From assembly GCA_964513645.1 (NCBI GenBank), contig CAZENF010000003.1:127914-191913 (forward strand): a stretch of DNA of 64,000 nucleotides, written 5' to 3'. Source of the DNA: an uncultured Candidatus Saccharibacteria bacterium. GTDB taxonomy: Bacteria; Patescibacteriota; Minisyncoccia; 2-02-FULL-40-12; GWA2-44-9. A model generated the notes under the pieces. It was not told where the DNA came from. It saw only the letters and a program-made list of their open reading frames with translations, and searched no databases. Below, one piece after another: positions 17,431-46,479 of this stretch (positions are counted from its first letter, which is position 1; every line of letters begins with the position of its first letter). Position numbers and translations under genes: made by a program.

Positions 17431-18801
17431 GTGGAAACACAGGCCAGAACGGTACAGGAATTTTTTGATCTTTCCAAGATAGGACCCTTCAGCGATGACG
17501 AAGTTTCGATGATGCTCGAAGCCATTTTTAAGAAGATAAATGTCAGTTTTGCCAAGAACGAGGAAGTTCCGAAAACTATCCTTGTCGATCTGTTCGGTAC
17601 CCAGAAATCGATGAAAACTTCGGTTACGGGCAAGGTAGAGCAGGTTTTCAGGCGTCACGGATTCAAAGTATTTTGTCCGCCGGAAACAGCGGAACATGAG
17701 GGTATCCGAAGTCTCGATACGGATAATCCGGTTGTGGAACAGGCCAAGCATCTTAACGGCGTAAGGGCACAGGCATTGTATATGGCGAGACACCCGCGTG
17801 TCCATTTCGGTATGACCAGTCGCGGGCTCATCGATATGCTCTATTGGTATAAAAAAGGACTCAAAAAGGGAACCTACAGCCCGGCTCACGTGGAAAGTAT
17901 AAAGAACGAAGTTGTTGAACTTCTCCAGCTTCAGCTGGTTGACGCATTTTTCTTTTTCACCTGTTCAGTTGAGACTGTTATGAGGCGGGAATATGACGGC
18001 TCGCTGACTCAAAGGCGCGGCTCAAAAATGAACGAGAAGGATGTTGCCGATACCATCGGACTTTATAATGAAGTTCTGGCCGAGATCGAAGAAAGTGTTC
18101 CCGGTCTGCCGATATTCCATATCGATACTTCAGAAATGGATTTGCGCCAGGCCGGCCAGGAAGTTCTTCGGTATCTTCTGCCGACGATTTGCCGGCGGTT
18201 CGGCATTCCCGACTATTCCTACATGCCTTATTTACCGACGTTGGTTCAGCGCCGGGCCCGGCATTCGGATTATTTTGAGGAACAGCTTAAGCTTTCCGGC
18301 CATCCGGATCTCGACCGCTTGTTCAAGGCCGGCTGGGTTTATGTAAAAGAAACTCATGAAGAAGATACTTACTTCAATCCCGATAAGAACAAGGGAGAAG
18401 TTGTTCCTTCAGGAGAAACGATGCGTCTTCGATGTGATTATGATGGGACCAAATTTATGTATAAAGGCGAGCGTGAGGACATGATGTTCTCTCACTGTCG
18501 CCCGGTGACCTTCAAGGTCAATGCCGAAGAGATCAAAAAGATACAGGAAACATATCCTGCCATTGCATATATATTCAAAGAACGGAAGCATTATCGTAAA
18601 CAAGGTTCGACCGGTGACGGGCACTTCTTCAGTCTCCACCTGGACCGGGTCAGAGGTCTCGGCCTATTTACCGAGATCCGCGCCCGCGGTTCAGACGGAG
18701 CAACGCATGCCGAAGAAATGCTTAAACTGGCCGGCGAACTTGGCTTCACATTGAGCGATGTCCTGGAAGGCAACTATCTTTCCATGGTTTTTAAAAAGTA
18801 A
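17431..18801 (+). CDS. Two-domain protein: N-terminal nucleotide-kinase-like region fused to a C-terminal CYTH (triphosphate tunnel metalloenzyme) like domain
   Basis: C-terminal 170 aa: DTYF...RLRCDYDGTKFMYKGE...FSLHLDRVRGLGLFTEIRARG...LKLAGELGF resembles the CYTH/CyaB beta-tunnel pattern. N-terminal part is unassigned (degenerate P-loop-like GTQKSMKTS). Confidence 0.35.
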   Translation: METQARTVQEFFDLSKIGPFSDDEVSMMLEAIFKKINVSFAKNEEVPKTILVDLFGTQKSMKTSVTGKVEQVFRRHGFKVFCPPETAEHEGIRSLDTDNPVVEQAKHLNGVRAQALYMARHPRVHFGMTSRGLIDMLYWYKKGLKKGTYSPAHVESIKNEVVELLQLQLVDAFFFFTCSVETVMRREYDGSLTQRRGSKMNEKDVADTIGLYNEVLAEIEESVPGLPIFHIDTSEMDLRQAGQEVLRYLLPTICRRFGIPDYSYMPYLPTLVQRRARHSDYFEEQLKLSGHPDLDRLFKAGWVYVKETHEEDTYFNPDKNKGEVVPSGETMRLRCDYDGTKFMYKGEREDMMFSHCRPVTFKVNAEEIKKIQETYPAIAYIFKERKHYRKQGSTGDGHFFSLHLDRVRGLGLFTEIRARGSDGATHAEEMLKLAGELGFTLSDVLEGNYLSMVFKK

Positions 18802-19310: not shown

Positions 19311-19339
19311 TTGACTTTATTTACAAAATATTATATAAT
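19311..19339 (+). promoter_or_regulatory. Sigma70 promoter of the pilus operon (TTGACT-17-TATAAT)
   Basis: ttgact at 19311-19316, 17-nt spacer, tataat at 19334-19339; 45 nt upstream of the ATPase gene. Confidence 0.6.
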
Positions 19340-19383
19340 ATGTAATTGATTTATATCCGCTTTAGTGTAAGATTAACCGACTA

Positions 19384-20598
19384 ATGTCTAACACTCATAA
19401 AAAGAAAATAGATGCCGAGTTGTCCAAAGGCCGGAGTGTATCCATAATCAACTTGGTTGCCGCTCTTATCGGCTATGCCAACAGTATTAAGGCGTCTGAT
19501 ATCCATATCGACCCCAAGGAAAAAATGCTAAAAATCAGATTCAGGATCGACGGGGTTCTGAAAGATATTTACGACCTGCCGAAAGAGATACATCCAGAAA
19601 TAATCGGACGCATTAAGATACTTTCAAACTTACGGACCGATGAGCACCAAATGACCCAGGACGGTAGGTTCAGGATAAATGCAGACGATATTGAAAATAT
19701 CGATATCCGGGTTGCTATCAGTCCGGCTTATCATGGTGAAAGTGCGGTTCTTCGTCTTCTGACGGATAAAGCGGATCAGTTCAGTCTGGCCAATCTCGGC
19801 TTCAATGAAGAGAATCAGAGAAAAATTCTCGAAGCCGTCAAAAAACCTTACGGAATGATCCTGGCCACCGGTCCGACGGGCTCGGGCAAAACCACCACTC
19901 TCTATACCATCTTAAAACTTTTAAATACCAGAGATGTCGCCATCATTACTATTGAGGACCCTATCGAATATGCCATCGACAATATCAGACAAATCCCGGT
20001 CAACACCAGGACCGGCCTGACTTTTCATACCGGTTTGCGTTCAATTTTGAGACAGGATCCGGATATTATAATGGTAGGTGAGATACGCGACCAGGAAACT
20101 GCGGGCCTCGCGGTTAATACCGCTTTGACCGGCCATCTTTTACTTTCAACTCTTCACACCAATGATTCGGCCACAACTTTGCCCCGGCTTTTGGATATGA
20201 AGATCGAGCCCTATTTGGTTGCCTCAACGGTCAACATCGCTTTAGGCCAGAGACTTGTCAGAAAGATATGTGAAAATTGCAAAAAGCAATACAAGATGAC
20301 CGAAGCCGAGCTCAAAAGCCTGAACGGTATGGCTGCCAAGCTTACTGAAAAAGATTTCTATAAGGGCGCCGGCTGTGATAAGTGTAATCTGACCGGGTAT
20401 GAGGACCGGGTCGGCATACATGAAGTAATGCTTATCGATGCGGATATCCGGGAAGCTATCCTCAAAAAGGAATCTGCGGATACCATCAAGAAAATCGCGA
20501 TAAAAAATGGTATGAAAACGATGATCGAGGACGGTTTTGAAAAGGCCGCCCTGGGCATTACAACCATTGCCGAAGTTTTAAGGGTTATTCACGAGTAA
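19384..20598 (+). CDS. Type IV pilus / competence pseudopilus assembly ATPase (PilB/GspE/ComGA family, core domains only)
   Basis: Walker A ATGPTGSGKTTTLYT, Asp box, His box and tetracysteine motif CENCKK...CDKCNLTGY. At 404 aa it lacks the long N-terminal domains of PilB/GspE. Confidence 0.85.
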   Translation: MSNTHKKKIDAELSKGRSVSIINLVAALIGYANSIKASDIHIDPKEKMLKIRFRIDGVLKDIYDLPKEIHPEIIGRIKILSNLRTDEHQMTQDGRFRINADDIENIDIRVAISPAYHGESAVLRLLTDKADQFSLANLGFNEENQRKILEAVKKPYGMILATGPTGSGKTTTLYTILKLLNTRDVAIITIEDPIEYAIDNIRQIPVNTRTGLTFHTGLRSILRQDPDIIMVGEIRDQETAGLAVNTALTGHLLLSTLHTNDSATTLPRLLDMKIEPYLVASTVNIALGQRLVRKICENCKKQYKMTEAELKSLNGMAAKLTEKDFYKGAGCDKCNLTGYEDRVGIHEVMLIDADIREAILKKESADTIKKIAIKNGMKTMIEDGFEKAALGITTIAEVLRVIHE

Positions 20599-20607
20599 TT
20601 ATGTACT

Positions 20608-21678
20608 ATGGAACTGACTACCTATTTCAAAAACAGATTGCCGCTTAAGGATCAGGTTGCTTTTACCAAGCGCCTTGCTTTTCTGGTCCGGGCCGATGTA
20701 CCGATACTTGAAAGTTTGAGGATGATGCATAAACAGACCCGTTCCAAGTCTCGGGCTGAGATAATCGACCACATCATCCAGGATGTTTCAAACGGCCAGT
20801 ATCTTGCCGACAGTTTGGCCAAGTTCCGGAATACTTTCGGTGATTTTGCCATCAATATCATCCGGGTCGGTGAAGAAGGCGGAATTCTCGACCAAAATCT
20901 CGAGTACCTGGCCGAAGAACTCTACAAAAGACAAGAGCTTAAGAAAAAAATAATCGGCGCTCTCATTTATCCGGCTTTTATAACCATCTCGACTTTGGGT
21001 GTCAGTGGTTTCGTTACGGCCTATGTTTTTCCGAAAATAATGCCGATATTCAAAAGTATGGGCACTACTCTGCCGGTTACTACTCGCGCCCTGATATTTG
21101 TAAGCGGCTTCATTATCCATTATGGTATTTTAACTCTGTTCGGTCTGGTCATCGCCGGATTCATATGCTTTATGGCTTATAAAAAAAATAAGGCCTTTAA
21201 TTATGCGGCCAGTCACGCCATGATGAAAATGCCTGTCTGGGGAAACTTGATCCAAAACTACTATATGGCCAATTTTGCCCGGACTTTGGGACTTCTTTTA
21301 AACTGTCAGATGAATATAATTACCGCTGCCAGGATAACCGCCGATTCTACCCCGAACCTTATATATAAACACAGAATCTATGAACTGGCCGACGAAATCT
21401 CACGCGGTCGTAAAATATCACAATACCTCGAAACACAGGCAAACCTTTTTCCCGAAATGGTTCCCCAGATGATCGCCATTGGCGAAACGACCGGCAGTTT
21501 GGGTAACACTTTGATCTATCTGAGTGATTACTACGAGAAAGAGGTTAACGAAATAACTAAGAATCTCTCAAGTTCAATTGAACCCATCCTTCTGGTTTGT
21601 GTCGGGGTTATCGTCGGATTCATTGCGGTTTCAGTCATTACTCCTATCTATCAGCTCACGCAAAATATCCATCCGTAA
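20608..21678 (+). CDS. Type IV pilus / T2SS platform protein (PilC/GspF/ComGB family)
   Basis: 356 aa, two GspF-type repeats, polytopic; directly follows the ATPase gene. Confidence 0.8.
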   Translation: MELTTYFKNRLPLKDQVAFTKRLAFLVRADVPILESLRMMHKQTRSKSRAEIIDHIIQDVSNGQYLADSLAKFRNTFGDFAINIIRVGEEGGILDQNLEYLAEELYKRQELKKKIIGALIYPAFITISTLGVSGFVTAYVFPKIMPIFKSMGTTLPVTTRALIFVSGFIIHYGILTLFGLVIAGFICFMAYKKNKAFNYAASHAMMKMPVWGNLIQNYYMANFARTLGLLLNCQMNIITAARITADSTPNLIYKHRIYELADEISRGRKISQYLETQANLFPEMVPQMIAIGETTGSLGNTLIYLSDYYEKEVNEITKNLSSSIEPILLVCVGVIVGFIAVSVITPIYQLTQNIHP

Positions 21679-21688
21679 AGTTCAGTCC

Positions 21689-22117
21689 ATGAATGAAAAA
21701 GGTTTTACATTTATTGAAACTCTGGTCGTTGTTGTTATCTTTTCTTTTATTCTGGGTCTCGGATTTTTTATGAGCCAGGATCTTTATCGTTCCACTTCCT
21801 TTAATTCTGACACCCAGGCCATTGCTGCCGCTTTTGAGAGGGCACGGACCCAATCTTTGGACAATATCGACCAGAAACCTCACGGCGTTGTCTTAACCTC
21901 CGGCAATTATGTTATCTTCGAGGGCGCGGTTTACAATCCAAGCGATCCAAATAATTACTCTATTTCCGGCAATCCGAATTTTACTTTTACCGGTCCAACC
22001 CAGATTGTTTTTACCCAGCTTACGGGACAATCAAATGCCAGCGGCAGTTTAGTCATTCTTGACGGTTCCAAATCAGCTACCATATCTTTTAATTTTGAAG
22101 GAAGGATAAACTGGTAA
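21689..22117 (+). CDS. Prepilin-type N-terminal cleavage/methylation domain pseudopilin
   Basis: MNEKGFTFIETLVVVVIFSFILG: class III signal G-F-T-F-I-E. The track ORF 21578 start is an upstream in-frame extension overlapping pilC. Confidence 0.75.
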   Translation: MNEKGFTFIETLVVVVIFSFILGLGFFMSQDLYRSTSFNSDTQAIAAAFERARTQSLDNIDQKPHGVVLTSGNYVIFEGAVYNPSDPNNYSISGNPNFTFTGPTQIVFTQLTGQSNASGSLVILDGSKSATISFNFEGRINW

Positions 22118-23620
22118 ATGAAAAAATATTCAAAACAAAAAGGTTTCAGCACCATCGAGATCTCAGTCGCTCTCCTCATCATCACAGTAGGTTTGACCGC
22201 GGCTACTTTAGTCATTTTTGGCGGTCGGTCTTTTTCCTCGGATTCCGGACTCGATAACGAAGCATTATATAAAGCTCAGAGACAAATAGAGGATGCGAGG
22301 GCCTCGGCCCGGGCAAGTTTCGGTTCGGTCATTTCAAGCTCGAGCAACGACGGAATATATTTTAAAGAGGTCGTGGTTTCATCCGGTAGCCAGCCCTACA
22401 GCAAGAACGTCATTAGCCGGATTAGCTGGACGGCTCCTGGTCCGAGGTCTGAAAAGATCGAACTATCGACAACTTTAAGCGATTGGAAAAACGCTCTGGT
22501 CAAAAATCAGCCGTGTCTGACGCCTTTGTCGGGCGATTGGCAGCATCCGCAGATGGCTTTCTATGAATTCGGCAAAGATCTTCTTGGCGACTCTTCAAGC
22601 GGTTACCCTTTGACCGGGATTACCGTCCTGAACTCTAAGTTGTATGTTACTGTCAACAACACCAACGGTAATAATTTTCCGAGTCTTTTCATCTTTGATG
22701 TCTCAAAACCGGGCGTTAAACCGGCTCTTTTAACCAGTGCCGATAATGATCCGGGGGTAAAATCGGGCCTGAATGCCATAACGGTCAACGGCAATTATGC
22801 TTATGTCGCAAACGCCAACAATCCAAATTTTTCGACTTGCGCTACTTGCGGACAATTGCAAATATTCGACATCAGTAAAACGCCGCCCCAGGTCATAGAT
22901 ACTTTCAAGGTCCCCGGGGTGACCGGTAAGAACGGACAATCTATCGGTACCAGTATTTTTTATAAGGGCGGGATAGTTTATCTGGGTTTGGCGAAAACTC
23001 CCGATGGAGCAACGGGGGACACCGAATTTAATTTAATAGATGTTGGTGGCGGAGGACACGGCGGTAGTCCGACAAGCCCGGTTTTTCTCGGCGGCTACCA
23101 GGTCGGTAACGGGGTCAATGCGATATATGCTAAAGGCAAATATGCCTACATTGCAACGCCCAACAGCGAAAATATGACCATCTTGGATGTCAGCGATCCG
23201 ACCCACCCGACGAGAGCTGGCGGCTATTCTCCGGGAATCGGTTCCAACGGCGAGAGTTTGTTTGTCACCGGTTCTACCGTCTATCTTGGTCGGACCTTCG
23301 GCACCAACGAATTTTATATTTTAAATGTCCAGAATCCGGCGAGCATCACTGTTCTGGGTTCCAAAGATATCGGCAGCGGCAGCAGTACGAGTATTAACGG
23401 CGTCGTTTTGCGGAGCAATCTTGCGTTTTTGATAACCAATACCCAGTTCCAGATCTGGAATGTGGCAAATCCGGCGAGCATCACCCAGTGGGCGACACCT
23501 TTGAGTTTGCCGGCCGGCAGCGGCACGACCATCAGTTGTAGTACTGACAATTCCATCTATGTCGGCTCGCTACCTTCAAATGATAAAGGTTTTATCTCGA
23601 TAATTACCCCTGGTCCGTAA
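22118..23620 (+). CDS. Large pilin-like protein: prepilin N-terminus fused to an LVIVD-repeat beta-propeller domain
   Basis: MKKYSKQKGFSTIEISVALLIITVGL (prepilin signal). At least four blades of the LVIVD repeat pattern (NGNYAYVANA...LQIFDISKTPPQV; KGKYAYIATPNSENMTILDVSDPTHPT; STVYLGRT...FYILNVQNPASITVLG; SNLAFLITNTQFQIWNVANPASITQW). Confidence 0.65.
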   Translation: MKKYSKQKGFSTIEISVALLIITVGLTAATLVIFGGRSFSSDSGLDNEALYKAQRQIEDARASARASFGSVISSSSNDGIYFKEVVVSSGSQPYSKNVISRISWTAPGPRSEKIELSTTLSDWKNALVKNQPCLTPLSGDWQHPQMAFYEFGKDLLGDSSSGYPLTGITVLNSKLYVTVNNTNGNNFPSLFIFDVSKPGVKPALLTSADNDPGVKSGLNAITVNGNYAYVANANNPNFSTCATCGQLQIFDISKTPPQVIDTFKVPGVTGKNGQSIGTSIFYKGGIVYLGLAKTPDGATGDTEFNLIDVGGGGHGGSPTSPVFLGGYQVGNGVNAIYAKGKYAYIATPNSENMTILDVSDPTHPTRAGGYSPGIGSNGESLFVTGSTVYLGRTFGTNEFYILNVQNPASITVLGSKDIGSGSSTSINGVVLRSNLAFLITNTQFQIWNVANPASITQWATPLSLPAGSGTTISCSTDNSIYVGSLPSNDKGFISIITPGP

Positions 23621-23623
23621 ACT

Positions 23624-24091
23624 ATGAAAAAAAACAACGGCTTCAGCCTCATCGAAGTTTTAATATATATCAGCTTGATGTCACTTATCCTGACCGGGGC
23701 TTTGACCTTGTCTTACCAGCTCATCAGTTCAGCCGGTACTTCAAATAAAAATATCATAATTCTGGATGAAGCGAATTTTATGCTCCGAAAAATAAACTGG
23801 GCGATGGACGGGGTGGCGACAATCAATTCACCGGCTGTCGGGGCGAGCGGCCAGACTCTGTCTGTAACCAAAACCGGCGCCGCGAATCCGATAATTTTTG
23901 ATCTTAGTTCCGGAAATTTGAGAATAACCGAGAGCGGGGGAGCAGCGGTAATCCTCAACAGCTCGAGAGTTGTTGTCGCCGGTTTGAATTTTAAGCATTT
24001 TGCCGCCTCGGGCAACAAACCCGAATCGGTCAAAGCAAGTTTTACAGTCAACGGTACTGCGTTCGAAACTACAAAATATTTAAGAAAATAA
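23624..24091 (+). CDS. Prepilin-type pseudopilin
   Basis: MKKNNGFSLIEVLIYISLMSLILTG. Confidence 0.7.
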   Translation: MKKNNGFSLIEVLIYISLMSLILTGALTLSYQLISSAGTSNKNIIILDEANFMLRKINWAMDGVATINSPAVGASGQTLSVTKTGAANPIIFDLSSGNLRITESGGAAVILNSSRVVVAGLNFKHFAASGNKPESVKASFTVNGTAFETTKYLRK

Positions 24092-24092
24092 A

Positions 24093-24491
24093 ATGAACAG
24101 CCAATCCGGTTTTATCGCGATCATGTCATCCATCATCATTGTTCTGGTCGTAACCACAATGGCTTTTGCTTTGGGCATGCTCGGTTTCTTCAACCGTTTT
24201 AATATTTTGGACAGTCAGCTCAAGGAAACAAGTTTTGCTCTGGCCGAAGCCTGTGGCGATACTGCACTTTTGAATCTGGCTAACAATCCGAACTATACTC
24301 CGGTCAATGAGGTCGTCTCTTTCGGTTCAGAACAGTGTACCATTGTATCTTTGCAGTCGGATACTCCGGCTATCAATCAGACCACTATCAAAACCAAAGC
24401 GGTCGAAAATACCTCCGTATCGAACATCCAAATCGTCGTTAATTCCGATGACCTCTCGGTGATTACCTGGCAGGAAATACCTACTCTTTAA
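24093..24491 (+). CDS. Minor pilin-like protein (degenerate prepilin N-terminus)
   Basis: MNSQSGFIAIMSSIIIVLVVTTMAFALG; starts 1 nt after the previous pilin gene. Confidence 0.5.
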   Translation: MNSQSGFIAIMSSIIIVLVVTTMAFALGMLGFFNRFNILDSQLKETSFALAEACGDTALLNLANNPNYTPVNEVVSFGSEQCTIVSLQSDTPAINQTTIKTKAVENTSVSNIQIVVNSDDLSVITWQEIPTL

Positions 24492-24614
24492 TGCCTTTTT
24501 AAGTCGACCTCTTAAAGGTTTTTGTGTTTCGACACAGCTTGACAAAATAGTCAAAGTATAATATTATATGACTGGTATCTAAGCTTTATAGTTCGCTTAG
24601 TTTCTAAGTGACAA

Positions 24615-25061
24615 ATGACTAAAAATCCCATAAAATACTGGCTCTTTGGCGTGGTCTGTTTAGCCGTTCTTGCAGGTCTGACTTATCACGAAAAAACCGC
24701 CTTGGCGGAATGGATGTACAGGTATGATCTTCTGCCCAAGCCGGAATTTTTTACCGAATTATATTTTAATACTTATCCCAAATTCAAGGATATCGTCACC
24801 AATGGACAGCAGATATCATTTTCATTTACCATTGCCAACCATGAGGAATCGGAGCAGACCTATACTTACGAGGTCTGGTTCAGGGCCAGCGCCAACAATG
24901 AGATAAAGATAGCCAAAGGAGATGCGGATATTTCGCCCGGAGAATCCCAAACCATAAAGATCAATTATACCTTTGAACAGTTCGGATTATCAAAAAGTTC
25001 CATTGTTGTCAGAATACCTGAATCCGGAAGGGAGATACATTTCTTTCTGGGCCCGGTTTAA
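24615..25061 (+). CDS. Hypothetical membrane-anchored protein (predicted beta-rich ectodomain)
   Basis: N-terminal TM (YWLFGVVCLAVLAGL); preceded by a TTGACA-17-TATTAT promoter at about 24538-24566. Confidence 0.35.
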   Translation: MTKNPIKYWLFGVVCLAVLAGLTYHEKTALAEWMYRYDLLPKPEFFTELYFNTYPKFKDIVTNGQQISFSFTIANHEESEQTYTYEVWFRASANNEIKIAKGDADISPGESQTIKINYTFEQFGLSKSSIVVRIPESGREIHFFLGPV

Positions 25062-25071
25062 ATAAAAAATA

Positions 25072-26925
25072 ATGGCGTCAATCAAAAGAAAAAAAATAAC
25101 CGCCCTTATTCCTTGCTATAACGAAGCCGGAGGTATTGCTGCGGTCATCAATAATTTTCCGTTTGATAAAATTGATTATCAGGGTTTTGACCTCGAGATA
25201 GTTGTTATCGATAACAATTCGAGCGATTCGACTCCGAATATCGCACGTTCGCTCGGCGTAACCGTTCTCCATGAACCGATAAAAGGCAAAGGCAATGCGA
25301 TGCGCCGGGGTTTTAATTACGCCTTATCAAATCACGCCGATTATATCGTCATGCTCGATGGCGACGATACTTACCGTTCAAAAGAAATTTTAAGACTTAT
25401 CGAACCTTTGGATTCCGGTTTTTGCGACGTGGTTGTCGGCTCACGTTTGGGAGGACGTATTCATGATGGCTCGATGACGACTTTTAACAGGATGGGCAAC
25501 TGGGTGTTCTCTCATCTTGTCCGATATTTTTATCAGGTTAACGTAACCGATGTTCTCACCGGTTATTTTGCCTGGACCAAAAAAGCTTTGAAACATCTCG
25601 CCCCGAATCTCAAATCGCAGGGTTTTGCCATTGAAATGGAAATGGTCACTAAAATGGCGCGTCTCGGAGAGGAAATTTACTCTGTACCCATCTCATACGA
25701 TAAACGTGCCGGTGAGACCAACCTTAATCCAGTCTATGACGGTGCCAGGATACTTTGGATGTTTGCCAAAAATCTTGTTTGGAATGCTCCGTTGCAGTCG
25801 GTTCAGCGTATCGTTTTTGTTTCCGATGCCATCATGCCTTATAACAAAGGTGGGAAAGAGCGTCGTCTCTATGAAATAACCAAACGTCTCGTCAGGGAAG
25901 GACGCGAGGTACATATCTATACTATGAAATGGTGGGACGGGCCGTTCATCATTGAACACAACGGAGTATATTTCCATGCCATCTCGAAACTATATCCTTT
26001 ATACAACGGAGGCCACCGCTCGATAAAACAAGCTATCATGTTCGGTCTGGCCACTTTCAAACTTATCTTCGTTGATTTCGATGTTCTCGATGTCGACCAT
26101 ATGCCGTTCTTCCCGCTTTTCAGTGCGAGAATAGTAACCTGGTTAAAGGGTAAAAAACTTCAGGCCACCTGGCATGAGGTCTGGGGCTATAACTACTGGA
26201 TGCACTATTTAAAGGGCCTGAGTGGATTTATCGGATACATTATAGAGAGAACATCTCTTTTAATGCCGGATACAATTATTTCAAACTCGGAACACACTAC
26301 CGGCCGTCTTAAATCGGCGGGATTTAACGGTATCATCCAAACCATTCCCTTAGGAGTGGATGTTCCGAGAATAAAATCAGTCAAGAAAGCAAGCGACAAA
26401 AGCGATGTCATCTTTGTCGGGCGTTTGCTCGAGAATAAGAATGCGGATCTTCTGGTCAAAGCCATTGCTCTCGTTAAATACATCTATCCGAATGTCATCT
26501 GTAAGATCGTCGGTGACGGACCGGAAAAAGATAATATCGAAGGTCTTATCCGCAGACTTGGTCTCGAACAAAATATCCACATCACGTCTTTTGTTGCGGA
26601 AAGCGACGAGCTTTATTCTTTGATGAAGGCCTCTAAGATGCTGGTCTTGCCCTCTATCCGGGAAGGTTTTGGTCTGGTTGTGGTTGAGGCAAATGCGGCC
26701 GGCATCCCTGTTATCACCACATCTCACGAGGATAACGCTGCCCGGCACCTCATTCAGGAAGGCAGCAACGGTCTTCTGGCCGATGCAAGCATGAGAAGTA
26801 TTGCTGAAAAAATAATCAAAATAATGAGGAATGAAAATAAAATGCAGCCCAAAAAAGATATAGAGAAATATGACTGGCCTGTCGTGGTCCAACGAGTGGA
26901 ACAGGTTATAGGGCCGATGCCGTAA
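25072..26925 (+). CDS. Bifunctional glycosyltransferase: N-terminal GT2 (Dpm1-like) fused to C-terminal GT4 (group 1)
   Basis: N-terminal ALIPCYNEAGGI...VVIDNNSSDST...MLDGDDTY (GT-A DXD). C-terminal VGRLLENKNADLL...PSIREGFGLVVVEANAAGIPVITT (GT4 E-x7-E region). Confidence 0.75.
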   Translation: MASIKRKKITALIPCYNEAGGIAAVINNFPFDKIDYQGFDLEIVVIDNNSSDSTPNIARSLGVTVLHEPIKGKGNAMRRGFNYALSNHADYIVMLDGDDTYRSKEILRLIEPLDSGFCDVVVGSRLGGRIHDGSMTTFNRMGNWVFSHLVRYFYQVNVTDVLTGYFAWTKKALKHLAPNLKSQGFAIEMEMVTKMARLGEEIYSVPISYDKRAGETNLNPVYDGARILWMFAKNLVWNAPLQSVQRIVFVSDAIMPYNKGGKERRLYEITKRLVREGREVHIYTMKWWDGPFIIEHNGVYFHAISKLYPLYNGGHRSIKQAIMFGLATFKLIFVDFDVLDVDHMPFFPLFSARIVTWLKGKKLQATWHEVWGYNYWMHYLKGLSGFIGYIIERTSLLMPDTIISNSEHTTGRLKSAGFNGIIQTIPLGVDVPRIKSVKKASDKSDVIFVGRLLENKNADLLVKAIALVKYIYPNVICKIVGDGPEKDNIEGLIRRLGLEQNIHITSFVAESDELYSLMKASKMLVLPSIREGFGLVVVEANAAGIPVITTSHEDNAARHLIQEGSNGLLADASMRSIAEKIIKIMRNENKMQPKKDIEKYDWPVVVQRVEQVIGPMP

Positions 26926-26926
26926 A

Positions 26927-27625
26927 ATGAAAAAAATAAAAGTTACAACCAGCTGGGATGACGGCCATATGCTCGACATCCGTATCGCTAAACTCTTGAG
27001 AAAATACAACCTTAAGGGGACGTTTTTTATTTCTCCCAAGGACAGGGAGCTTTCTCCGACCGAACGTTTGACTGGCGGGGAGATAAAAATGCTGTCCAAA
27101 GAATTTGAGATCGGCGCACATACGATGACGCATCCGCTTTTAACCCGCGTTGAGGACCATATCGCCTATAAGGAAATCCTTGATTCCAAGAATTATCTTG
27201 AAAAGATCCTCCACAAACCGGTTAGAAGTTTTTGTTATCCCGGAGGTTTTTATAAAAAGAAACACCAACTTATCCTAAAAAAGCTCGGCTTTAAGTTAAG
27301 CAGGACAGTCAGCAGATTCGAGACTGAAACTGGTTCGAATTTGTTTGCTGTCCCGACAACTGTCCACGCCTACCGTCATTGGTCGGATATCGTTCCGATA
27401 TTTAAAAATGCCGGCTTCAGAAAATTCCTTTCCCGATATCTGAATTGGGATGAACTGGCCATATCCATGTTCGACAAAATAGCCGAGACCGGAGGCGTTT
27501 TTCATCTATGGGGTCATTCCTGGGAAATAGAAAAAAACAATGACTGGGAAAGATTGGAACGAGTTTTTAAACATATTTCAAATCACGCTAACGCCAAATA
27601 TATAACCAATGGAGACGTCGCCTAA
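26927..27625 (+). CDS. Polysaccharide deacetylase (CE4 / NodB homology domain)
   Basis: TTSWDDGHMLDIRIAKLLRKYNLKGTFFI (TFDDG-like motif 1), GAHTMTHP (motif 2 His); starts 2 nt after the upstream gene. Confidence 0.65.
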   Translation: MKKIKVTTSWDDGHMLDIRIAKLLRKYNLKGTFFISPKDRELSPTERLTGGEIKMLSKEFEIGAHTMTHPLLTRVEDHIAYKEILDSKNYLEKILHKPVRSFCYPGGFYKKKHQLILKKLGFKLSRTVSRFETETGSNLFAVPTTVHAYRHWSDIVPIFKNAGFRKFLSRYLNWDELAISMFDKIAETGGVFHLWGHSWEIEKNNDWERLERVFKHISNHANAKYITNGDVA

Positions 27626-30600
27626 AACAATTCTGCTTGTCGCTCCGTATTTTCCTCCTGACGGCGGCGGTTTAGAACGCTATGCCTTCGAGATCGCCAA
27701 GCGTCTCGCTAAAGGCTACAACTGGCGCATCGTCGTGATGGTGTCCGGCAAAAAATATGGTGAGGATACTAAAGAAGAATCAAACGGCCTGACGATATAC
27801 CGATTAGGATATAGTCTCAAAATTTCTAATACTCCATTAGGATTTTTGTGGTTTGGTAAAATTCGCAAAATTTTAAAGACTGAAAAACCAGATATCATAA
27901 ACATCCACACTCCTGTTCCGGGTATCGGAGATATAACTTCTTTTTTAGCGGGCAGCATCCCGACCGTGGTTACATACCATACCGGCAGCATGCTTAAGAG
28001 TAAGATCTTGCCGGATATTGCTGTCCGGTTATATGAGTACGGGCCTATGAGATTACTTCTGAACCAGGCCAAACATATAATTTGTTCGTCTGACTTTGTC
28101 CGTTTTAATTTTCTTGGGCGCTATATTCATAAAAGCACTACTATCACTCCTGCGGTCGATGTAGATATATTTAAGCCAGATGTCTCAAAAAAAGCTAAAG
28201 ACCCGACTGTATTGTTTGTCGCAGGTCTTGGCCATTCAGAACAGTACAAAGGTCTTGCTACTCTTTTGAATGCCATTTCGATGGTCAAAAATGATATTTC
28301 GAATATCCGACTTATTGTGGCCGGAGACGGGGATATGCGCTCAGAATACGAATCCCAAGCGGAAAAATTAGGAATCGGAAGCTCTGTAGATTTCAGAGGT
28401 AAATTAAGCAATGGCAAATTAGTTGCGGCTTATCAGGAAGCTCACATTTTTGTCTTACCGACATCAAATGACAGTTTTCCTTTAACCATCCTCGAAGCTA
28501 TGGCAACAGAATTGCCTGTGGTCTCAACCAGGATCGGTAGCATACCTTCTATAATTGAAAGCGGTCAAGACGGCTTCTTAATTAACGGATTTACTGCAGA
28601 GGCCGTAGCTTCTGATATATCGAAGATAATTAAAGACGAAATCGTTAAATTGAATTTTGGTCTTGCTGGTCGTAAAAAAGTATTAGATAAGTTTAATTGG
28701 AAATTGCGTGCTGATCAATATCAAAACGTTCTGTCATCTATTTCAGAATTTAAATTAAGGACAGTTCGAAAAATAGCTATTGTAACTCCATATTTTTATC
28801 CCAAGATTGGCGGACTTGAAAATTATGCTCTTGAAATGGGCAGAGCTTTAAGGCGCGACGGTAACGATATTTTTGTCATTACCAGTAATCATTTAAACAA
28901 AAAATGGCAATACGAAGAAATAGAAGGTATGAAGATTTATCGCATGCCAAGATTGTTTAAGATATCGAACACGCCGGTAAATCCTTTATGGTATTTATGG
29001 GTCTGGCGTATTTTAAGGCTTGAAAGACCAGATCTTATCAATGCCCATACCCCTGTTCCATTTATTGCCGATGTGACCGAAAGAGTAAGGGGCAATATAC
29101 CCCTTGTTTTAAATTATCACAATGATCTTGTGAAAAGTAATTTGTTTGCAGATCTGCTTTGTCGCATATCCTATATCTTTATGATAAACAAAACACTGCG
29201 TGATGCAGATAAGATAATAGCGACATCTCAATATTACGCTTCGCAATCCAGTTATTTAAGGCCGCTAATCAGTAAAATTGATTTTGTTCCGCCCGGAGTA
29301 GATATTAATAGATATAAACTCAATCTTGATGCACGCTATTTTAAAGAACGTTTTAAAGATTTTCGCACTGTGCTTTTTGTTGGTCAATTGGATAAAACCC
29401 ACAGACACAAAGGTCTGGACGATATAATAAAAGCCGTTGCCGAACTGAGGTCGTCGATAAAAAATATTAAACTTGTTGTTGTGGGTAAGGGTAATAATAT
29501 TGATTCATATAAAAAATATGCTGCTTCTCTTGGTATTGAAAATCAAGTAAGTTTCGAGGGGTTTGTTGAAGATGATGTATTGCCACAATATTATGCGGGA
29601 GCGGACGTTTTGGTCTTGCCGTCCAAAGATAAGTCAGAAGGTTTCGGGATGGTTATAACTGAGGCAGCTGCCTGCGGTACGCCAGCTGTTGCAAGTAGAA
29701 TCGGAGGAATCCCGGCAGCTCTAATAGACGGAGAGACCGGTATCCTGGTTTCACCTAATAATGTTTTACAACTTTCTGCGGCCATGAAAAAAATACTGGA
29801 CAATGGAACTTTTGCCAAAAAGTTAGGTGATAATGCCAGTTTGCGTATTAAAAAAGAGTTTGCATTATCGGTAGTAACAAGCAAATTTGTGGATATAATT
29901 TGTAAGATCGAGAAGAAAATTTCTATACTGCAAGTAGTGCCTTATTATCCACCCCACATAGGAGGAATGGAATTAAGGGTCAGAGATTTATCTACAAACT
30001 TGGTTAAGGAAAAAGTTGATGTTAATGTCATCACTTCTAACATTGGCGCTCAAAGCGGTTATTCTGAACAGAACGGTGTCAAGGTTAACTATCTGCCAGC
30101 ATTCAATTTTGCTAATACTCCATTTACCCCGGGACTTATATGGTACTTGCTTACTGTAAAAAAGCCCGATGTGTTTCACATACACATATCTCAAGCTTTT
30201 TTTCCGGAAATAGCTGCTATTGTTGCGAAAATAAGAGGTATTCCATACATAACCCATATACGTTTACTAGTTGAAGCATCAGGAGTTTTCGGAATTCTTC
30301 TGCCGATATACAGATATTTTGTATTAAAGCCGGTACTTCTTGGCTCAAAATACGTCATAACTTTGACAGAAGACGATAAGGAAATAGTGAATAATAAATT
30401 TAAGGTCCCGTTACCACGGATAAAAGTAATTCCAAACGCTACAGATTTTGGAATCATTGACTCACCAAGAACTATAACCAAACCTCTCAATATCCTTGCT
30501 GTTGGACGTATATCTCTTCAAAAAAATTATTCATTCATGTTGCAGGTTATGAGTGAATTCAAGAAAATATATGGCCCTGATTTTAAGTTAAAAATTGTTG

Positions 30601-31025
30601 GTACTGGTGACGGTTTATATAACCTTAAAAACGAGGCTGAAAAATTAAATCTCAAAAATAATATTCTATTCTTAGACGAAAAAATAGGTTCAGAACTGGA
30701 AGACATATACAGCAAATCTGATATTTTTCTGCATACATCTACTAAAGAAGGTTTTGGTACTGTTTTTATTGAAGCCATGACCAAGGGCTTGCCAGTGGTA
30801 GCTTCAAATATCCCTGGTTCACGTAATGTGATTATGAATGGAAGGAACGGCTTGTTAAGTGATTTTTCCTCTGAGGATATGGCTAAGAAGCTCGAACTTT
30901 TGTGCAGGGATCAATCCTTATACCAAAAAATCAGTGAAAATAATATTTCAGATGTTAAAAAATACAATTGGGACAATGTAGCGACTGATACGATCAACAC
31001 TTACTTACATGCAAGAAATTTTTAA
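27609..31025 (+). CDS. Triple GT4 glycosyltransferase: three complete tandem GT4 modules in one 1138-aa polypeptide
   Basis: Module starts: TILLVAPYFPPDGGGLERYAFEIA; KIAIVTPYFYPKIGGLENYALEMGRAL; ISILQVVPYYPPHIGGMELRVRDLS. Three C-terminal nucleotide-sugar motifs (DSFPLTILEAMATELPVVST; SEGFGMVITEAAACGTPAVAS; KEGFGTVFIEAMTKGLPVVAS). Confidence 0.75.
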   Translation: METSPKTILLVAPYFPPDGGGLERYAFEIAKRLAKGYNWRIVVMVSGKKYGEDTKEESNGLTIYRLGYSLKISNTPLGFLWFGKIRKILKTEKPDIINIHTPVPGIGDITSFLAGSIPTVVTYHTGSMLKSKILPDIAVRLYEYGPMRLLLNQAKHIICSSDFVRFNFLGRYIHKSTTITPAVDVDIFKPDVSKKAKDPTVLFVAGLGHSEQYKGLATLLNAISMVKNDISNIRLIVAGDGDMRSEYESQAEKLGIGSSVDFRGKLSNGKLVAAYQEAHIFVLPTSNDSFPLTILEAMATELPVVSTRIGSIPSIIESGQDGFLINGFTAEAVASDISKIIKDEIVKLNFGLAGRKKVLDKFNWKLRADQYQNVLSSISEFKLRTVRKIAIVTPYFYPKIGGLENYALEMGRALRRDGNDIFVITSNHLNKKWQYEEIEGMKIYRMPRLFKISNTPVNPLWYLWVWRILRLERPDLINAHTPVPFIADVTERVRGNIPLVLNYHNDLVKSNLFADLLCRISYIFMINKTLRDADKIIATSQYYASQSSYLRPLISKIDFVPPGVDINRYKLNLDARYFKERFKDFRTVLFVGQLDKTHRHKGLDDIIKAVAELRSSIKNIKLVVVGKGNNIDSYKKYAASLGIENQVSFEGFVEDDVLPQYYAGADVLVLPSKDKSEGFGMVITEAAACGTPAVASRIGGIPAALIDGETGILVSPNNVLQLSAAMKKILDNGTFAKKLGDNASLRIKKEFALSVVTSKFVDIICKIEKKISILQVVPYYPPHIGGMELRVRDLSTNLVKEKVDVNVITSNIGAQSGYSEQNGVKVNYLPAFNFANTPFTPGLIWYLLTVKKPDVFHIHISQAFFPEIAAIVAKIRGIPYITHIRLLVEASGVFGILLPIYRYFVLKPVLLGSKYVITLTEDDKEIVNNKFKVPLPRIKVIPNATDFGIIDSPRTITKPLNILAVGRISLQKNYSFMLQVMSEFKKIYGPDFKLKIVGTGDGLYNLKNEAEKLNLKNNILFLDEKIGSELEDIYSKSDIFLHTSTKEGFGTVFIEAMTKGLPVVASNIPGSRNVIMNGRNGLLSDFSSEDMAKKLELLCRDQSLYQKISENNISDVKKYNWDNVATDTINTYLHARNF

Positions 31026-32931
31026 TAAAAACACATTAATAGGGCAAATAAGCGCATACTATCCGCCCCACATAGGCGGAATTGAAAATGTGGTTGAGGC
31101 TGTTAGTAGGGAATTATCTGTGATGGGTCGGAATGTACAGGTGATTACAGCATCTAACTCACACTTATCAGAAAAAAACCATCCTCGTATAATCGGGTTG
31201 AAATATTTTGAAATTGCTCATGTACCTTTTACTCCCGGGCTTCTTTGGTATCTTTTGATGTTGCCCAAAAATTCTTTAATGCATCTTCATATTGCTCATG
31301 CATTTTTTCCAGAGCAAGTATTTATTGCTTCAAAAATAAGGAAGATACCATATATAGTTCATTTTCATCTCGACGTAGGACCATCGACTTTTTTAGGACC
31401 CCTATTCTTGTTATATAAAAAGATTGTCTGGGGGCCTGTTTTGCGCAGCGCAAGTAAGGTTATCGTTTTATCAAATGAACAATTAAGTTTGGTTTCCAGC
31501 AAGTATGGGGTTAAGAAAGAAAATATCGTCATTGTTTCTAATGGTGTGGGCCAAGAATTTATTAAGATCGGTAAGGAGCGTAAATCGTTTAGCAAAACTC
31601 TGCGTCTTCTGTCCGTCGGTCGTTTAGCAATACAAAAACGTCCGGAACGGCTATTGTATGCCATGTTGTCGTTGAATGTTCCTGTACATATGACTTTTGT
31701 TGGGGACGGTGAAGATAGAGAAAAACTTGAAACATTGGCCCGTGAATTGAAACTGACCAATGTCACTTTTGTCGGAAAAAAATTCGGAGACGAATTACTT
31801 GAGTATTACCGCAATTCAGATGTCTTTTTAATATCTTCAGATGAAGAGGGGATGCCCTTAGTGGTACTCGAAGCCATGGCTTCCGGTCTGCCTGTTATTG
31901 GTACGGATGTCATCGGTACACGTGAACTTGTAAAAGATACAGGGTTGCTTGTAGCCGAGCCATACCTCCAGAATTTTACATATGCCATAAGTAAACTTCA
32001 TTATAATCCAGAATTAGTAAAAGAATTGTCACAAAAAAGTGTTGAGAAAGCCAGTTCTTATACTTGGGCCAGTGCGGTTGAAAAAATAACTAAAATTTAT
32101 ACCGATATTTTAAAAAATGATGTTGTCTCACAAAATCGTAACCGGGAAATTGAGTTCTGGGACAATGTTAGCAAGAGAGATAAAGAATGGATTGTCAGTA
32201 CACCAAAGGAAGAAATCGAACAATTTATAGTTGATAAAATACGGAGAGGAAATACCAGATGGTGGGAGCCGATGATTGGCAAGTTAGAGGGCAAAAAAAT
32301 ATTAGACATAGGGTGTGGTACAACTTTTTTTGCGACATACTGGTCGTTGACGGGTAATGATTCTTTTGGTTCCGACTATTCACCAGAAACTATCAAAACA
32401 AATAATCTTTTACACGAAAAATTAGGATTGAAAAAGAATTTTTATGTTGCTTCGTCCGAGAAAATAGATGCAGCGGATAACTCTTTGGATGTAGTGCATA
32501 TGCGTTGGGTAATACATCATATACCACCAGAATTACAAAATAGCTCTATGTATGAGATAAAACGAGTTCTTAAACCTGGCGGAAAACTTATCGTATTTGA
32601 AACCAATTATGCCTACCCATTTAGATGGATAGTTCAGACACCGATATTGCGTAGTTTAAATTTTTTAAGACATTACGCTATAAATAAAGGTTGGTTAGAC
32701 CCAGAAGAAAAAGCTCTAACCAACGAAGGATATATAAATCTTATTGAGAATAATGGCTTTAAGATAAATATTGTTGACCACGATTTTACGTTCTTCTACT
32801 ACCCAGTAAGTTTATTGACCCGAAATGAATTCATAAGAAACTTAGTTCGGGAGTTTGATAATACAATCAGATCAATTATATCGGATAGGTTTAGTAAGGA
32901 TATTAAAATAATTGCAGAAAAATATGAATGA
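31009..32931 (+). CDS. GT4 glycosyltransferase fused to a C-terminal class I SAM-dependent methyltransferase
   Basis: N-terminal ISAYYPPHIGGIENVV...EGMPLVVLEAMASGLPVIGT. C-terminal ILDIGCGTTFFATYW (MTase motif I), LDVVHMRWVIHHI, LKPGGKLIVFE (motif post-II/III). Overlaps upstream by 17 nt. Confidence 0.75.
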   Translation: MQEIFNKNTLIGQISAYYPPHIGGIENVVEAVSRELSVMGRNVQVITASNSHLSEKNHPRIIGLKYFEIAHVPFTPGLLWYLLMLPKNSLMHLHIAHAFFPEQVFIASKIRKIPYIVHFHLDVGPSTFLGPLFLLYKKIVWGPVLRSASKVIVLSNEQLSLVSSKYGVKKENIVIVSNGVGQEFIKIGKERKSFSKTLRLLSVGRLAIQKRPERLLYAMLSLNVPVHMTFVGDGEDREKLETLARELKLTNVTFVGKKFGDELLEYYRNSDVFLISSDEEGMPLVVLEAMASGLPVIGTDVIGTRELVKDTGLLVAEPYLQNFTYAISKLHYNPELVKELSQKSVEKASSYTWASAVEKITKIYTDILKNDVVSQNRNREIEFWDNVSKRDKEWIVSTPKEEIEQFIVDKIRRGNTRWWEPMIGKLEGKKILDIGCGTTFFATYWSLTGNDSFGSDYSPETIKTNNLLHEKLGLKKNFYVASSEKIDAADNSLDVVHMRWVIHHIPPELQNSSMYEIKRVLKPGGKLIVFETNYAYPFRWIVQTPILRSLNFLRHYAINKGWLDPEEKALTNEGYINLIENNGFKINIVDHDFTFFYYPVSLLTRNEFIRNLVREFDNTIRSIISDRFSKDIKIIAEKYE

Positions 32932-35303: not shown

Positions 35304-35304
35304 T

Positions 35305-38424: not shown

Positions 38425-38432
38425 ACTGAACC

Positions 38433-46470: not shown

Positions 46471-46479
46471 ATTTTTTTA

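What the first reader, a model, noticed from the sequence alone, without database searches (positions are those of the whole stretch)
19311..24491. Minimal ComG/type IV pilus operon whose largest pilin is fused to an LVIVD beta-propeller
The operon is promoter + truncated PilB/ComGA ATPase + PilC + four prepilin-signal proteins, with no PilM/N/O/Q or prepilin peptidase in cis, resembling competence pseudopili of small-genome bacteria. The 500-aa pilin-like protein carries a class III prepilin signal fused to at least four LVIVD-type propeller blades. This is a likely tip adhesin or receptor-binding module, possibly for DNA or host-cell attachment.
Basis: partly seen in the sequence, partly recalled or inferred. 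Interest (0 to 1): 0.6.

Follow-up and report, generated by a model that had tools for sequence, protein, structure and literature searches.

The report
Pilus operon with propeller-tipped pilin
This is a compact type IV pilus gene cassette from an ultrasmall (Patescibacteria/CPR) bacterium in which one minor pilin carries a seven-bladed LVIVD beta-propeller, most likely shown at the pilus tip as a binding module; it is real and conserved, but belongs to a kind of "modular pilin" that has already been described.

Summary
Window 19311-24491 (+) carries a sigma-70-like promoter and six tightly packed genes. These are a GspE/PilB-class ATPase lacking the N-terminal domain, a PilC/GspF platform protein, and four pilin-like genes. 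Three of those have canonical G|FxxxE signals; the fourth has a pilin fold but no Glu5. The 500-aa protein has a conserved prepilin signal, a small pilin module and a confidently modelled seven-bladed propeller built from seven LVIVD-like repeats. The six-gene order recurs in 12 Patescibacteria MAG loci with sufficient flanks. In 14 of 17 distinct related loci a seventh gene, a probable major pilin, follows directly; it is absent from this entire window. No PilD, PilM/N/O/Q or PilT lies within 64 kb. The most likely mechanism is an HIJK-like priming complex at the pilus tip that presents the propeller as a ligand-binding module. It is not a ComG, T2SS or PilY1 member by curated thresholds. Novelty is modest. 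Pilin-LVIVD fusions were already counted in a 2021 census of modular pilins (30 of 1,219). A propeller-bearing minor pilin, PilX2, was shown in 2024 to promote host binding in Saccharibacteria. The ligand is unknown; the propeller is acidic and conserved rather than diversifying.

The parts
19311..19339 (+). sigma-70-like promoter (TTGACT-17 nt-TATAAT), 45 nt upstream of the ATPase start
   Evidence: 11 of 12 consensus positions. Sequence read. This is a consensus match only; function was not tested.
19384..20598 (+). Assembly ATPase of the GspE/PilB class (404 aa) lacking the N-terminal N1/GSPII domain
   Evidence: PF00437 E 3.2e-118; matches GspE positions 99-485/486 (496 bits, cut-off 630), PilB 173-562/564 (471 bits, cut-off 675) and ComGA (245 bits, cut-off 300). 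Walker A GPTGSGKT at 163, IIMVGEIRD at 228, LLSTLHTN at 253, CxxC...CxxC at 296-334; 49-66% identical in related loci.
20608..21678 (+). PilC/GspF platform protein (356 aa, two T2SSF domains)
   Evidence: PF00482 E 4.8e-52, two stretches. GspF 279 bits, PilC 248 bits, ComGB 142 bits, all below the equivalog cut-offs.
21689..22117 (+). Minor pilin 1 (142 aa; MNEKG|FTFIE), of the GspH/ComGD/PpdA-like 'H' type
   Evidence: N_methyl 27.7 bits (cut-off 21.2). ComGD E 6.9e-9 across nearly the whole length, below cut-off; 12-13 of 14 family members hit ComGD, GspH or PpdA; the true ATG is at 21689.
22118..23620 (+). Modular minor pilin (500 aa): leader aa 1-9, pilin module aa 10-125 (22145-22492), linker aa 126-139, seven-bladed LVIVD beta-propeller aa 140-500 (22535-23617)
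23624..24091 (+). Minor pilin 3 (155 aa; MKKNNG|FSLIE); type ambiguous (J-like by position)
   Evidence: N_methyl 31.6 bits; family members give weak, mixed hits to ComGE, ComGF, GspH, GspI and GspJ, driven by the N-terminal helix; conserved in this position in all related loci.
24093..24491 (+). Pilin-like protein without Glu5 (132 aa; MNSQSG|FIAIM), the candidate capping subunit of the tip complex
   Evidence: G6, A9, S12, C54 and C82 are invariant in 15 homologues, and position +5 is never Glu. AF2 pLDDT 85.3, helix 4-64 plus a five-strand sheet; the best relevant fold match is S. sanguinis PilA (7o5y), which is weak (E 0.05-0.14); no family hit.

Best explanation
This is a Patescibacteria-specific type IV pilus cassette.

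- A short GspE/PilB-class ATPase and a PilC platform extract pilins from the membrane.
- The four consecutive pilin-like genes encode a priming or tip complex analogous to the GspH-I-J-K / FimU-PilVWX set.
- The Glu5-less 132-aa subunit enters first and caps the filament.
- The 500-aa subunit inserts through its small pilin module. Its C-terminal seven-bladed LVIVD propeller, joined by a roughly 14-residue linker, sits exposed at the tip as a ligand-binding (adhesive) module.
- All four are expected to be cleaved after the conserved Gly by a prepilin peptidase encoded elsewhere. The filament body is built from a major pilin also encoded elsewhere in this genome; in most relatives that gene is the seventh of the cassette.

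Shown here: gene content, signals, folds, synteny and family-wide fusion.
Inferred: processing, tip location, binding function and ligand.
For: - Machinery: ATPase and platform identities, with all catalytic motifs and the tetra-Cys motif typical of extension ATPases.
- Pilins: three canonical class III signals and one Glu5-less pilin fold.
- Operon structure: gaps of 0-10 nt between the genes, consistent with one operon.
- Synteny: the same six-gene order occurs in 12 distinct Patescibacteria MAG loci with sufficient flanks.
- Structure: the high-confidence model shows a pilin module followed by a propeller.
- Obligate fusion: the pilin module is found essentially only fused to the propeller. 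Apparent short hits are contig-truncated. Longer ones add Ig-like domains after the propeller.
- Precedent: deleting the propeller-bearing minor pilin PilX2 in TM7x halves host binding without abolishing filaments (PMC11623550).
- Surface character: the propeller is acidic and rich in aromatics (pI 5.3, 35 F/W/Y in 371 aa). That fits protein or glycan binding better than DNA binding.
Against: - No experiment or expression data exist for this family.
- Assigning the pilins to H, I, J and K rests mainly on gene order and on the missing Glu5. Profile hits are weak and driven by the N-terminal helix.
- N_methyl scores for the 500-aa protein fall just below curated cut-offs.
- No PilD or major pilin lies in the window, so processing and filament formation in this organism are unverified.
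- The propeller is more conserved than the pilin module (46% vs 38% mean pairwise identity). This is not what a host-specific, diversifying adhesin would show.
- LVIVD repeats have no known ligand (PMC2447325, PMC10210494).
- Fold matches are generic WD40-like propellers.
Confidence: 0.6

Rival explanations
1. It is a Com-like DNA-uptake pseudopilus. The minimal ATPase, platform and pilin set builds a short competence pilus, and the propeller is its DNA receptor.
For: - The gene set is as small as comG, with no PilMNOQ or PilT in cis.
- The first pilin gives a nearly full-length though sub-threshold ComGD match.
- Patescibacteria depend on scavenged nucleotides, and Saccharibacteria are naturally competent (general knowledge; discussed in PMC11623550).
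Against: - ComGA and ComGB equivalog cut-offs are not met, and GspE/PilB and GspF/PilC score higher.
- The gene order differs from comG: the major pilin is last or absent, not third.
- The propeller is acidic (pI 5.3).
- No comEA, comEC or dprA lies in the window.
- The YncE match is no better than matches to dozens of WD40 proteins.
Confidence: 0.15
2. The propeller is mainly structural. It would be a built-in equivalent of the PilY1 C-terminal domain that primes assembly, blocks retraction, or stabilises the tip complex as it passes through the wall, with no external ligand.
For: - The propeller is more conserved than the pilin module and is never absent from the family.
- The conserved part of PilY1/PilC is likewise a propeller that docks on the minor-pilin complex (PMC8179133).
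- There is no retraction ATPase in cis.
Against: - In TM7x the propeller pilin PilX2 is dispensable for filament extrusion but needed for binding.
- Some family members extend the propeller with Ig-like Big_3_5 or MBG domains typical of adhesins.
Confidence: 0.15
3. It is a T2SS-like pseudopilus or an enzyme-presenting filament. The system would secrete proteins or display a catalytic propeller rather than an adhesin.
For: - The best NCBIfam matches for the ATPase and the platform are GspE and GspF.
- The family profile has a weak sequence match to a propeller phosphotriesterase (5hrm, E 3e-4, residues 193-322).
- The operon sits beside large polysaccharide and glycoside-hydrolase clusters.
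Against: - All Gsp scores are below the equivalog cut-offs.
- There is no secretin and no GspC, GspL or GspM.
- A T2SS is not expected in a likely monoderm envelope.
- The neighbouring clusters are not conserved next to the cassette in relatives.
- The hydrolase match is marginal and covers only two blades.
Confidence: 0.07

Closest known systems
Modular type IV pilins, defined on Streptococcus sanguinis PilB (vWA module) and PilC (lectin module) with the Glu5-less PilA tip complex (Raynaud et al. 2021, PMC8179133; Shahin et al. 2023, PMC9934059)
   Same: - A small N-terminal pilin module with a class III signal, a short linker and a bulky grafted module.
- Encoded in one operon together with a Glu5-less pilin.
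- Monoderm-type machinery without a secretin.
- The 2021 census already lists pilin-LVIVD (IPR012902-IPR013211) architectures: 30 of 1,219 proteins, including one from Ca. Falkowbacteria.
   Different: - The module here is a complete seven-bladed LVIVD propeller of unknown ligand, not a vWA or lectin domain.
- There are four pilin-like genes rather than three.
- No homology exists beyond the N-terminal helix. orf132 resembles PilA only weakly (Foldseek E 0.05-0.14).
- No member of this family has been studied experimentally.
PilX2 of Nanosynbacter lyticus TM7x T4P-2 (Grossman et al. 2024, PMC11623550)
   Same: [quoted passage not shown] Its deletion lowers host binding from about 10.6% to 4.6% while filaments are still made.
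   Different: - PilX2 carries RCC1 repeats, not LVIVD repeats, and was not predicted to have a PilD signal. The protein here has a canonical conserved one.
- TM7x T4P-2 has PilM2/N2/O2, and its pilins sit in a separate locus, so the loci are not syntenic.
PilY1/PilC tip adhesins of type IVa pili in diderm bacteria
   Same: A beta-propeller is presented at the pilus tip on a complex of four minor pilins.
   Different: - PilY1 is not a pilin and docks non-covalently. Here the propeller is fused to a pilin.
- No PilY1 family hit was found, and PilY1 is absent from the top structural matches.
- The resemblance is functional analogy only.
GspH-I-J-K / FimU-PilV-PilW-PilX / ComGD-GE-GF-GG core minor-pilin sets
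   Same: Four consecutive pilin genes are co-transcribed with the machinery. The last lacks Glu5. The first is GspH/ComGD-like.
   Different: - Sequence membership in the individual H, I, J and K families is not demonstrable.
- The Glu5-less subunit is a small plain pilin without the alpha-domain of GspK.
- The second subunit carries a 360-aa propeller.
ComG competence pseudopilus operon of Firmicutes
   Same: A compact operon of ATPase, platform and pilins, with the prepilin peptidase encoded elsewhere and no PilMNOQ.
   Different: ComGA and ComGB cut-offs are not met (245/300 and 142/240 bits). The ATPase keeps the C-terminal tetra-Cys region. There is no ComGC-like major pilin as third gene.

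Membership tests
Type IV pilin / class III signal peptide (PF07963 N_methyl, TIGR02532) | A short basic leader ending in Gly, then a roughly 20-residue hydrophobic helix with Glu at +5 | tested here: met
   The 500-aa protein reads MKKYSKQKG|FSTIEISVALLIITVGL. Gly and Glu5 are conserved in at least 90% of 52 homologues. The 142-aa and 155-aa pilins pass the Pfam cut-off at 27.7 and 31.6 bits.
Type IV pilin / class III signal peptide (PF07963 N_methyl, TIGR02532) | Curated HMM score cut-off reached by the 500-aa protein itself | tested here: not met
   PF07963 scores 16.7 bits against 21.2. TIGR02532 scores 15.8 against 16.3. This is a marginal miss, and the motif and fold are present.
Type IV pilin / class III signal peptide (PF07963 N_methyl, TIGR02532) | [quoted passage not shown] | tested here: met
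   AF2 gives helix 10-66 plus strands 74-121 for the 500-aa protein, and helix 4-64 plus five strands for orf132.
Type IV pilin / class III signal peptide (PF07963 N_methyl, TIGR02532) | Cleavage and N-methylation by a prepilin peptidase (PilD/ComC) | not testable with these tools
   No Peptidase_A24 lies in the 64-kb window.
LVIVD repeat beta-propeller (PF08309 / IPR013211) | Tandem repeats of about 42 aa matching the LVIVD model above the gathering score | tested here: met
   49.1 bits against 20.2, E 3.5e-13. Seven repeats align with the pattern xYAYVA...LxIxDVSxPxxP. Most homologues carry PF08309.
LVIVD repeat beta-propeller (PF08309 / IPR013211) | Repeats close into a beta-propeller | tested here: met
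Modular type IV pilins (sensu Raynaud et al. 2021) | An N-terminal pilin module joined by a short linker to a domain not specific to pilus biology | tested here: met
   Pilin module 10-125, linker 126-139, propeller 140-500. The architecture IPR012902-IPR013211 is listed in their Dataset S1.
Modular type IV pilins (sensu Raynaud et al. 2021) | The grafted module has a direct role in a pilus-mediated function such as adhesion | not testable with these tools
   No experimental data exist for any member. No paper in the searched library links LVIVD to pilins.
Com pilus (ComGA-GG) | ComGA and ComGB equivalog scores reached | tested here: not met
   ComGA scores 245 bits against 300. ComGB scores 142 against 240. 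GspE/PilB and GspF/PilC score higher.
Com pilus (ComGA-GG) | A ComGC major pilin encoded as the third gene of the operon | tested here: not met
   The third gene is ComGD/GspH-like. There is no major-pilin homologue in the window.
Type II secretion system | GspE and GspF equivalog scores reached, plus the secretin GspD and GspC/L/M | tested here: not met
   GspE scores 496 bits against 630. GspF scores 279 against 424. No secretin or GspC/L/M families were found in the window.
Type IVa pilus (PilBCMNOPQT) | PilB equivalog score reached, with PilM/N/O/P/Q and PilT present | tested here: not met
   PilB scores 471 bits against 675. None of PilM/N/O/P/Q/T is in the window or in the flanks of three related loci. 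They may be encoded elsewhere in the genome.
PilY1/PilC tip adhesin (IPR008707) | A C-terminal PilY1-type propeller in a non-pilin protein | tested here: not met
Core minor-pilin set H-I-J-K | Four co-operonic pilins, one of which lacks Glu5 | tested here: met
   Four consecutive genes are present. orf132 and all 14 homologues have G-F/Y-[IV]-A-[LI]-x-S, and never Glu, at +5.
Core minor-pilin set H-I-J-K | Sequence or structure membership of each subunit in the GspH, GspI, GspJ and GspK families | tested here: inconclusive
   The first pilin gives sub-threshold ComGD/GspH hits. The second hits only the N-terminal part of PilV (E 1e-5). The third is ambiguous. The fourth hits nothing. PDB profile searches hit only alpha-1.

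The most novel reading that the evidence does not exclude
The LVIVD propeller pilin could be the host-recognition device of a dedicated, retraction-independent 'attachment pilus' shared by many uncultured Paceibacteria-type Patescibacteria. It would bind a widely conserved surface polymer of host cells, such as a wall glycan. That would explain why it is conserved rather than diversifying. It would also provide the first defined ligand class for LVIVD repeats and a molecular handle for finding hosts of uncultured CPR lineages.
Probability: 0.3. Interest if true: 0.55.

Novelty: new member of a known kind. Interest (0 to 1): 0.35.

Why it matters
Patescibacteria make up a large share of bacterial diversity, and all cultured members live attached to host cells. 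How the uncultured majority find and bind hosts is unknown. This cassette is a conserved, compact pilus system whose tip probably carries a defined, well-folded and easily expressed binding domain.

If its ligand were identified, two things would follow:
- LVIVD repeats, which have had no function since 2004, would gain one.
- There would be a bait for identifying hosts of Paceibacteria-type lineages.

As it stands, the finding extends an already recognised principle, modular minor pilins, to one more module. It also adds a documented conserved gene order.

Tried and rejected
1. Reading the window's own genome for pilD or a major pilin failed. The identical 500-aa protein is in NCBI on a 264,921-bp contig but is not on record in the contig index. 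The genome is not among the GTDB representatives hit. Only two contigs of about 1.5 kb from the same organism were retrievable.
2. The AlphaFold-database Foldseek library was unavailable.
3. The 52-sequence alignment was too diverse for locus finding. A 12-sequence alignment worked.
It needed a second homologue search.
5. Profile searches of each minor-pilin family against PDB sequences matched only the N-terminal helix. For orf132 the only hit was a spurious Met-receptor Ig domain. They could not assign H, I, J or K identities. Per-member NCBIfam scans were equally ambiguous.
6. Foldseek on the orf132 model gave nothing at E <= 1e-3.
7. I considered whether the short (119-200 aa) hits to the pilin module were stand-alone pilins, which would date the fusion. 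The eight of these I read (134-177 aa) all break off in the conserved linker or propeller start, so they are truncated contigs.
8. I considered a misassembly as the cause of the missing major pilin. This is rejected because two independent assemblies show the same orf132-to-orf148 junction.
9. I considered an alternative genetic code. This is rejected because all six genes are intact under table 11.
10. No tRNA gene or Rfam family lies in the window.
Full report
OBSERVATION

On the + strand, window 19311-24491 holds a sigma-70-like promoter match (TTGACT-17-TATAAT, 11 of 12, at 19311-19339). Six genes follow, separated by 0-10 nt.

- Gene 1 (19384-20598, 404 aa) is a PF00437 secretion ATPase (E 3e-118).
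  - It aligns to GspE positions 99-485 of 486 and to PilB positions 173-562 of 564. It therefore lacks the N-terminal domain of those enzymes.
  - It keeps Walker A, the Asp/Walker B box, the His box and a CxxC...CxxC motif. The tetra-Cys motif is typical of extension ATPases rather than PilT-type ATPases (established knowledge).
  - Relatives are 404-420 aa, so the short form is the family's normal architecture and not a truncation artefact.
- Gene 2 (20608-21678, 356 aa) is a PilC/GspF platform protein with two PF00482 domains.
- Genes 3-5 carry canonical class III signals: MNEKG|FTFIE (ATG at 21689, 142 aa), MKKYSKQKG|FSTIE (22118, 500 aa) and MKKNNG|FSLIE (23624, 155 aa). A six-frame motif scan finds only these three in the whole 64 kb.
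- Gene 6 (24093-24491, 132 aa) begins MNSQSG|FIAIM. It has the Gly-Phe junction and a hydrophobic helix, but Met rather than Glu at +5.

THE 500-AA PROTEIN

- Pfam LVIVD scores 49.1 bits against a cut-off of 20.2.
- N_methyl and TIGR02532 fall marginally below their cut-offs. In an alignment of 52 homologues, however, the G-x-x-T-[LI]-E motif is conserved, with Glu5 in at least 90% of sequences.
- An AlphaFold2 model built on that alignment is confident (mean pLDDT 89.5, pTM 0.82).
  - It shows an alpha-1 helix at 10-66 and a four-stranded sheet at 74-121, which together form a small pilin module.
  - A short linker follows, and then a closed propeller at 140-499.
- PilY1 is not among the top matches.

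THE SIXTH GENE

- Fifteen homologues share invariant G6, A9, S12 and two cysteines, and none has Glu at +5.
- AF2 (pLDDT 85.3) gives a 60-residue helix packed on a five-stranded sheet, the pilin 'lollipop'.
- Foldseek finds nothing significant. The best relevant match is S. sanguinis PilA (7o5y; E 0.05-0.14, TM about 0.4). PilA is itself a Glu5-less tip pilin (PMC9934059).

SURROUNDINGS

Pfam scans of essentially all other long ORFs of the window find glycogen and redox genes upstream. Downstream there is a large, lower-GC polysaccharide and glycosyltransferase cluster. No Peptidase_A24, PilM/N/O/Q, PilT, ComEA/EC or additional pilin was found. There are no tRNAs or Rfam families.

RELATIVES

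- The 500-aa protein has about 100 full-length homologues (35-62% identity). All come from Patescibacteria/CPR metagenome bins and nearly all are annotated as hypothetical.
- In 12 distinct MAG loci with sufficient flanks the order ATPase, platform, pilin, LVIVD-pilin, pilin, Glu5-less pilin is identical. The bins are labelled Doudnabacteria, Nomurabacteria, Paceibacterota, Parcubacteria and 'Saccharibacteria'.
- The flanking genes differ between genomes. The cassette is therefore the conserved unit.
- In 14 of 17 distinct related loci a seventh gene follows directly, and in a fifteenth (L017) the same pilin lies about 2.9 kb further downstream. It is a 152-190-aa pilin with the very conserved N-terminus KGFTLIEILVVIGIIAILA-IV-IAINPARQFAQAR and a C-terminal VTR. 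By its form this is the major pilin.
- tblastn with all fifteen finds no homologue anywhere in the window. In its place sits a membrane-anchored Ig-like/DUF1616 protein (24615-25061) behind its own promoter-like site.
- Two independent short-read assemblies of the same organism show the same junction, so this is not a misassembly.
- The window's operon therefore encodes a motor and a priming set, but not the filament subunit.

FAMILY SIZE AND ARCHITECTURE

- phmmer with only the pilin module (aa 1-135) against 1.84 billion cluster representatives finds 545 hits at E <= 1e-3 and 167 at E <= 1e-10.
- Most of the best 150 are 456-570 aa.
- Of the ten short (<=319 aa) hits whose sequences were read, eight break off inside the conserved linker or propeller start and two run on into propeller repeats before breaking off, so all are truncated contigs.
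- Longer ones (600-1073 aa) keep the LVIVD propeller and add Big_3_5 or MBG Ig-like domains behind it.
- The pilin module thus occurs essentially only fused to the propeller.
- Mean pairwise identity is higher in the propeller (0.46) than in the pilin sheet (0.38). The propeller is under purifying selection and is not diversifying.

MECHANISM (INFERENCE)

Three features match the widely conserved H-I-J-K priming and tip complex of type IV filaments: four co-operonic pilins, the first ComGD/GspH-like, and the last without Glu5. In that complex the Glu5-less subunit enters first and caps the filament. A pilin carrying a 360-residue propeller on a short linker can be accommodated only at or near the tip, as argued for S. 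sanguinis PilB and PilC.

I therefore propose the following:
- The ATPase and platform, together with a PilD and a major pilin encoded elsewhere, assemble a pilus.
- The tip of that pilus presents the propeller as a binding module.
- The ligand is unknown. The acidic, aromatic-rich composition (pI 5.3) argues against DNA and is compatible with glycan or protein binding.
- Conservation across lineages suggests a common rather than host-specific ligand, or else a partly structural role.

COMPARISON WITH WHAT IS KNOWN

- By curated thresholds the machinery is not ComG, not T2SS and not canonical T4aP.
- The protein is not a PilY1.
- It does fit the definition of a modular type IV pilin.
  - The 2021 InterPro census of such proteins already lists IPR012902-IPR013211 architectures, 30 of 1,219 proteins. 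These include a Ca. Falkowbacteria protein singled out as carrying a 'motif of unknown function'.
  - IPR013211 is the LVIVD repeat.
- In Saccharibacteria TM7x, the minor pilin PilX2 carries a heptabladed RCC1 propeller. It is needed for efficient host binding but not for filament extrusion. Its locus is organised differently, with PilMNO present and the pilins encoded in a separate locus.
- No paper in the searched library connects LVIVD with pilins.

VERDICT

The functional reading is plausible but unproven, and the 'ComG' label does not hold.

The principle is already known and the architecture already catalogued. The additions here are:
- the confident seven-blade model;
- the obligate nature of the fusion;
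- the conserved six- or seven-gene cassette across Paceibacteria-type lineages;
- the Glu5-less pilin identity of the unannotated sixth gene;
- the absence of the major pilin gene from this particular locus.

Interest is moderate to low (0.35). Novelty: a new member of a known kind.

Noticed in passing
window 24492-25061: In most relatives the major pilin gene follows the sixth gene. This genome instead has a promoter-like site (TTGACA-17-TATTAT, 24539-24567) and a 148-aa membrane-anchored protein with weak DUF1616 and Ig-like (CARDB/HYDIN) matches. The polysaccharide cluster follows. Two independent assemblies show the same junction (L022, L023).
   Followed up: partly
L005 8001-9434 and 13494-14978; 12215-13489: One related MAG carries two LVIVD-pilin paralogues, one upstream of the ATPase and one in the normal slot. 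The called gene for the first minor pilin is fused in frame to a Bro-N domain, and ORF6N-domain genes flank the cassette. This suggests a mobile-element or phage insertion.
   Followed up: no
L017 12216-15251: In a Doudnabacteria genome (949-kb contig) the homologue of the Glu5-less 132-aa pilin is 1,011 aa long. There the capping subunit itself carries a large extra module. The major-pilin-like gene lies about 3 kb further downstream.
   Followed up: no
proteins P0157, P0159, P0171, P0190, P0202, P0216: Some family members of 740-1073 aa extend the LVIVD propeller with one to four Big_3_5 or MBG Ig-like domains. This architecture is typical of surface adhesins.
   Followed up: partly
window 25072-39638: A large polysaccharide-biosynthesis cluster has lower GC (0.36-0.40 against about 0.44). 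It includes a 1,138-aa protein with three tandem GT4 glycosyltransferase units, a GT4-methyltransferase fusion, a pyruvyl-transferase/flippase fusion and a DUF2206 membrane protein. It may be an acquired island.
   Followed up: no
window 55198-56643 (-) and 59055-60434 (-): Two PMT-family protein O-mannosyltransferases lie close together with a GT2 gene between them. They could glycosylate surface proteins, possibly including pilins. That link is pure speculation.
   Followed up: no
window 45340-47118: A sortase (46480-47118, PF04203) lies directly downstream of a 376-aa ORF with no Pfam match. The pair may be a sortase and its substrate, that is, a second surface-anchoring system.
   Followed up: no
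window 17431-18801: A 456-aa ORF immediately upstream of the operon, on the same strand, has no Pfam family at E <= 1. It is not conserved next to the cassette in relatives.
   Followed up: no
window 49699-50043: A small ORF carries an RNP-1-like motif (RGFGFVEM) and is probably an RRM-type RNA-binding protein. It surfaced only as a false positive of the prepilin motif scan.
   Followed up: no
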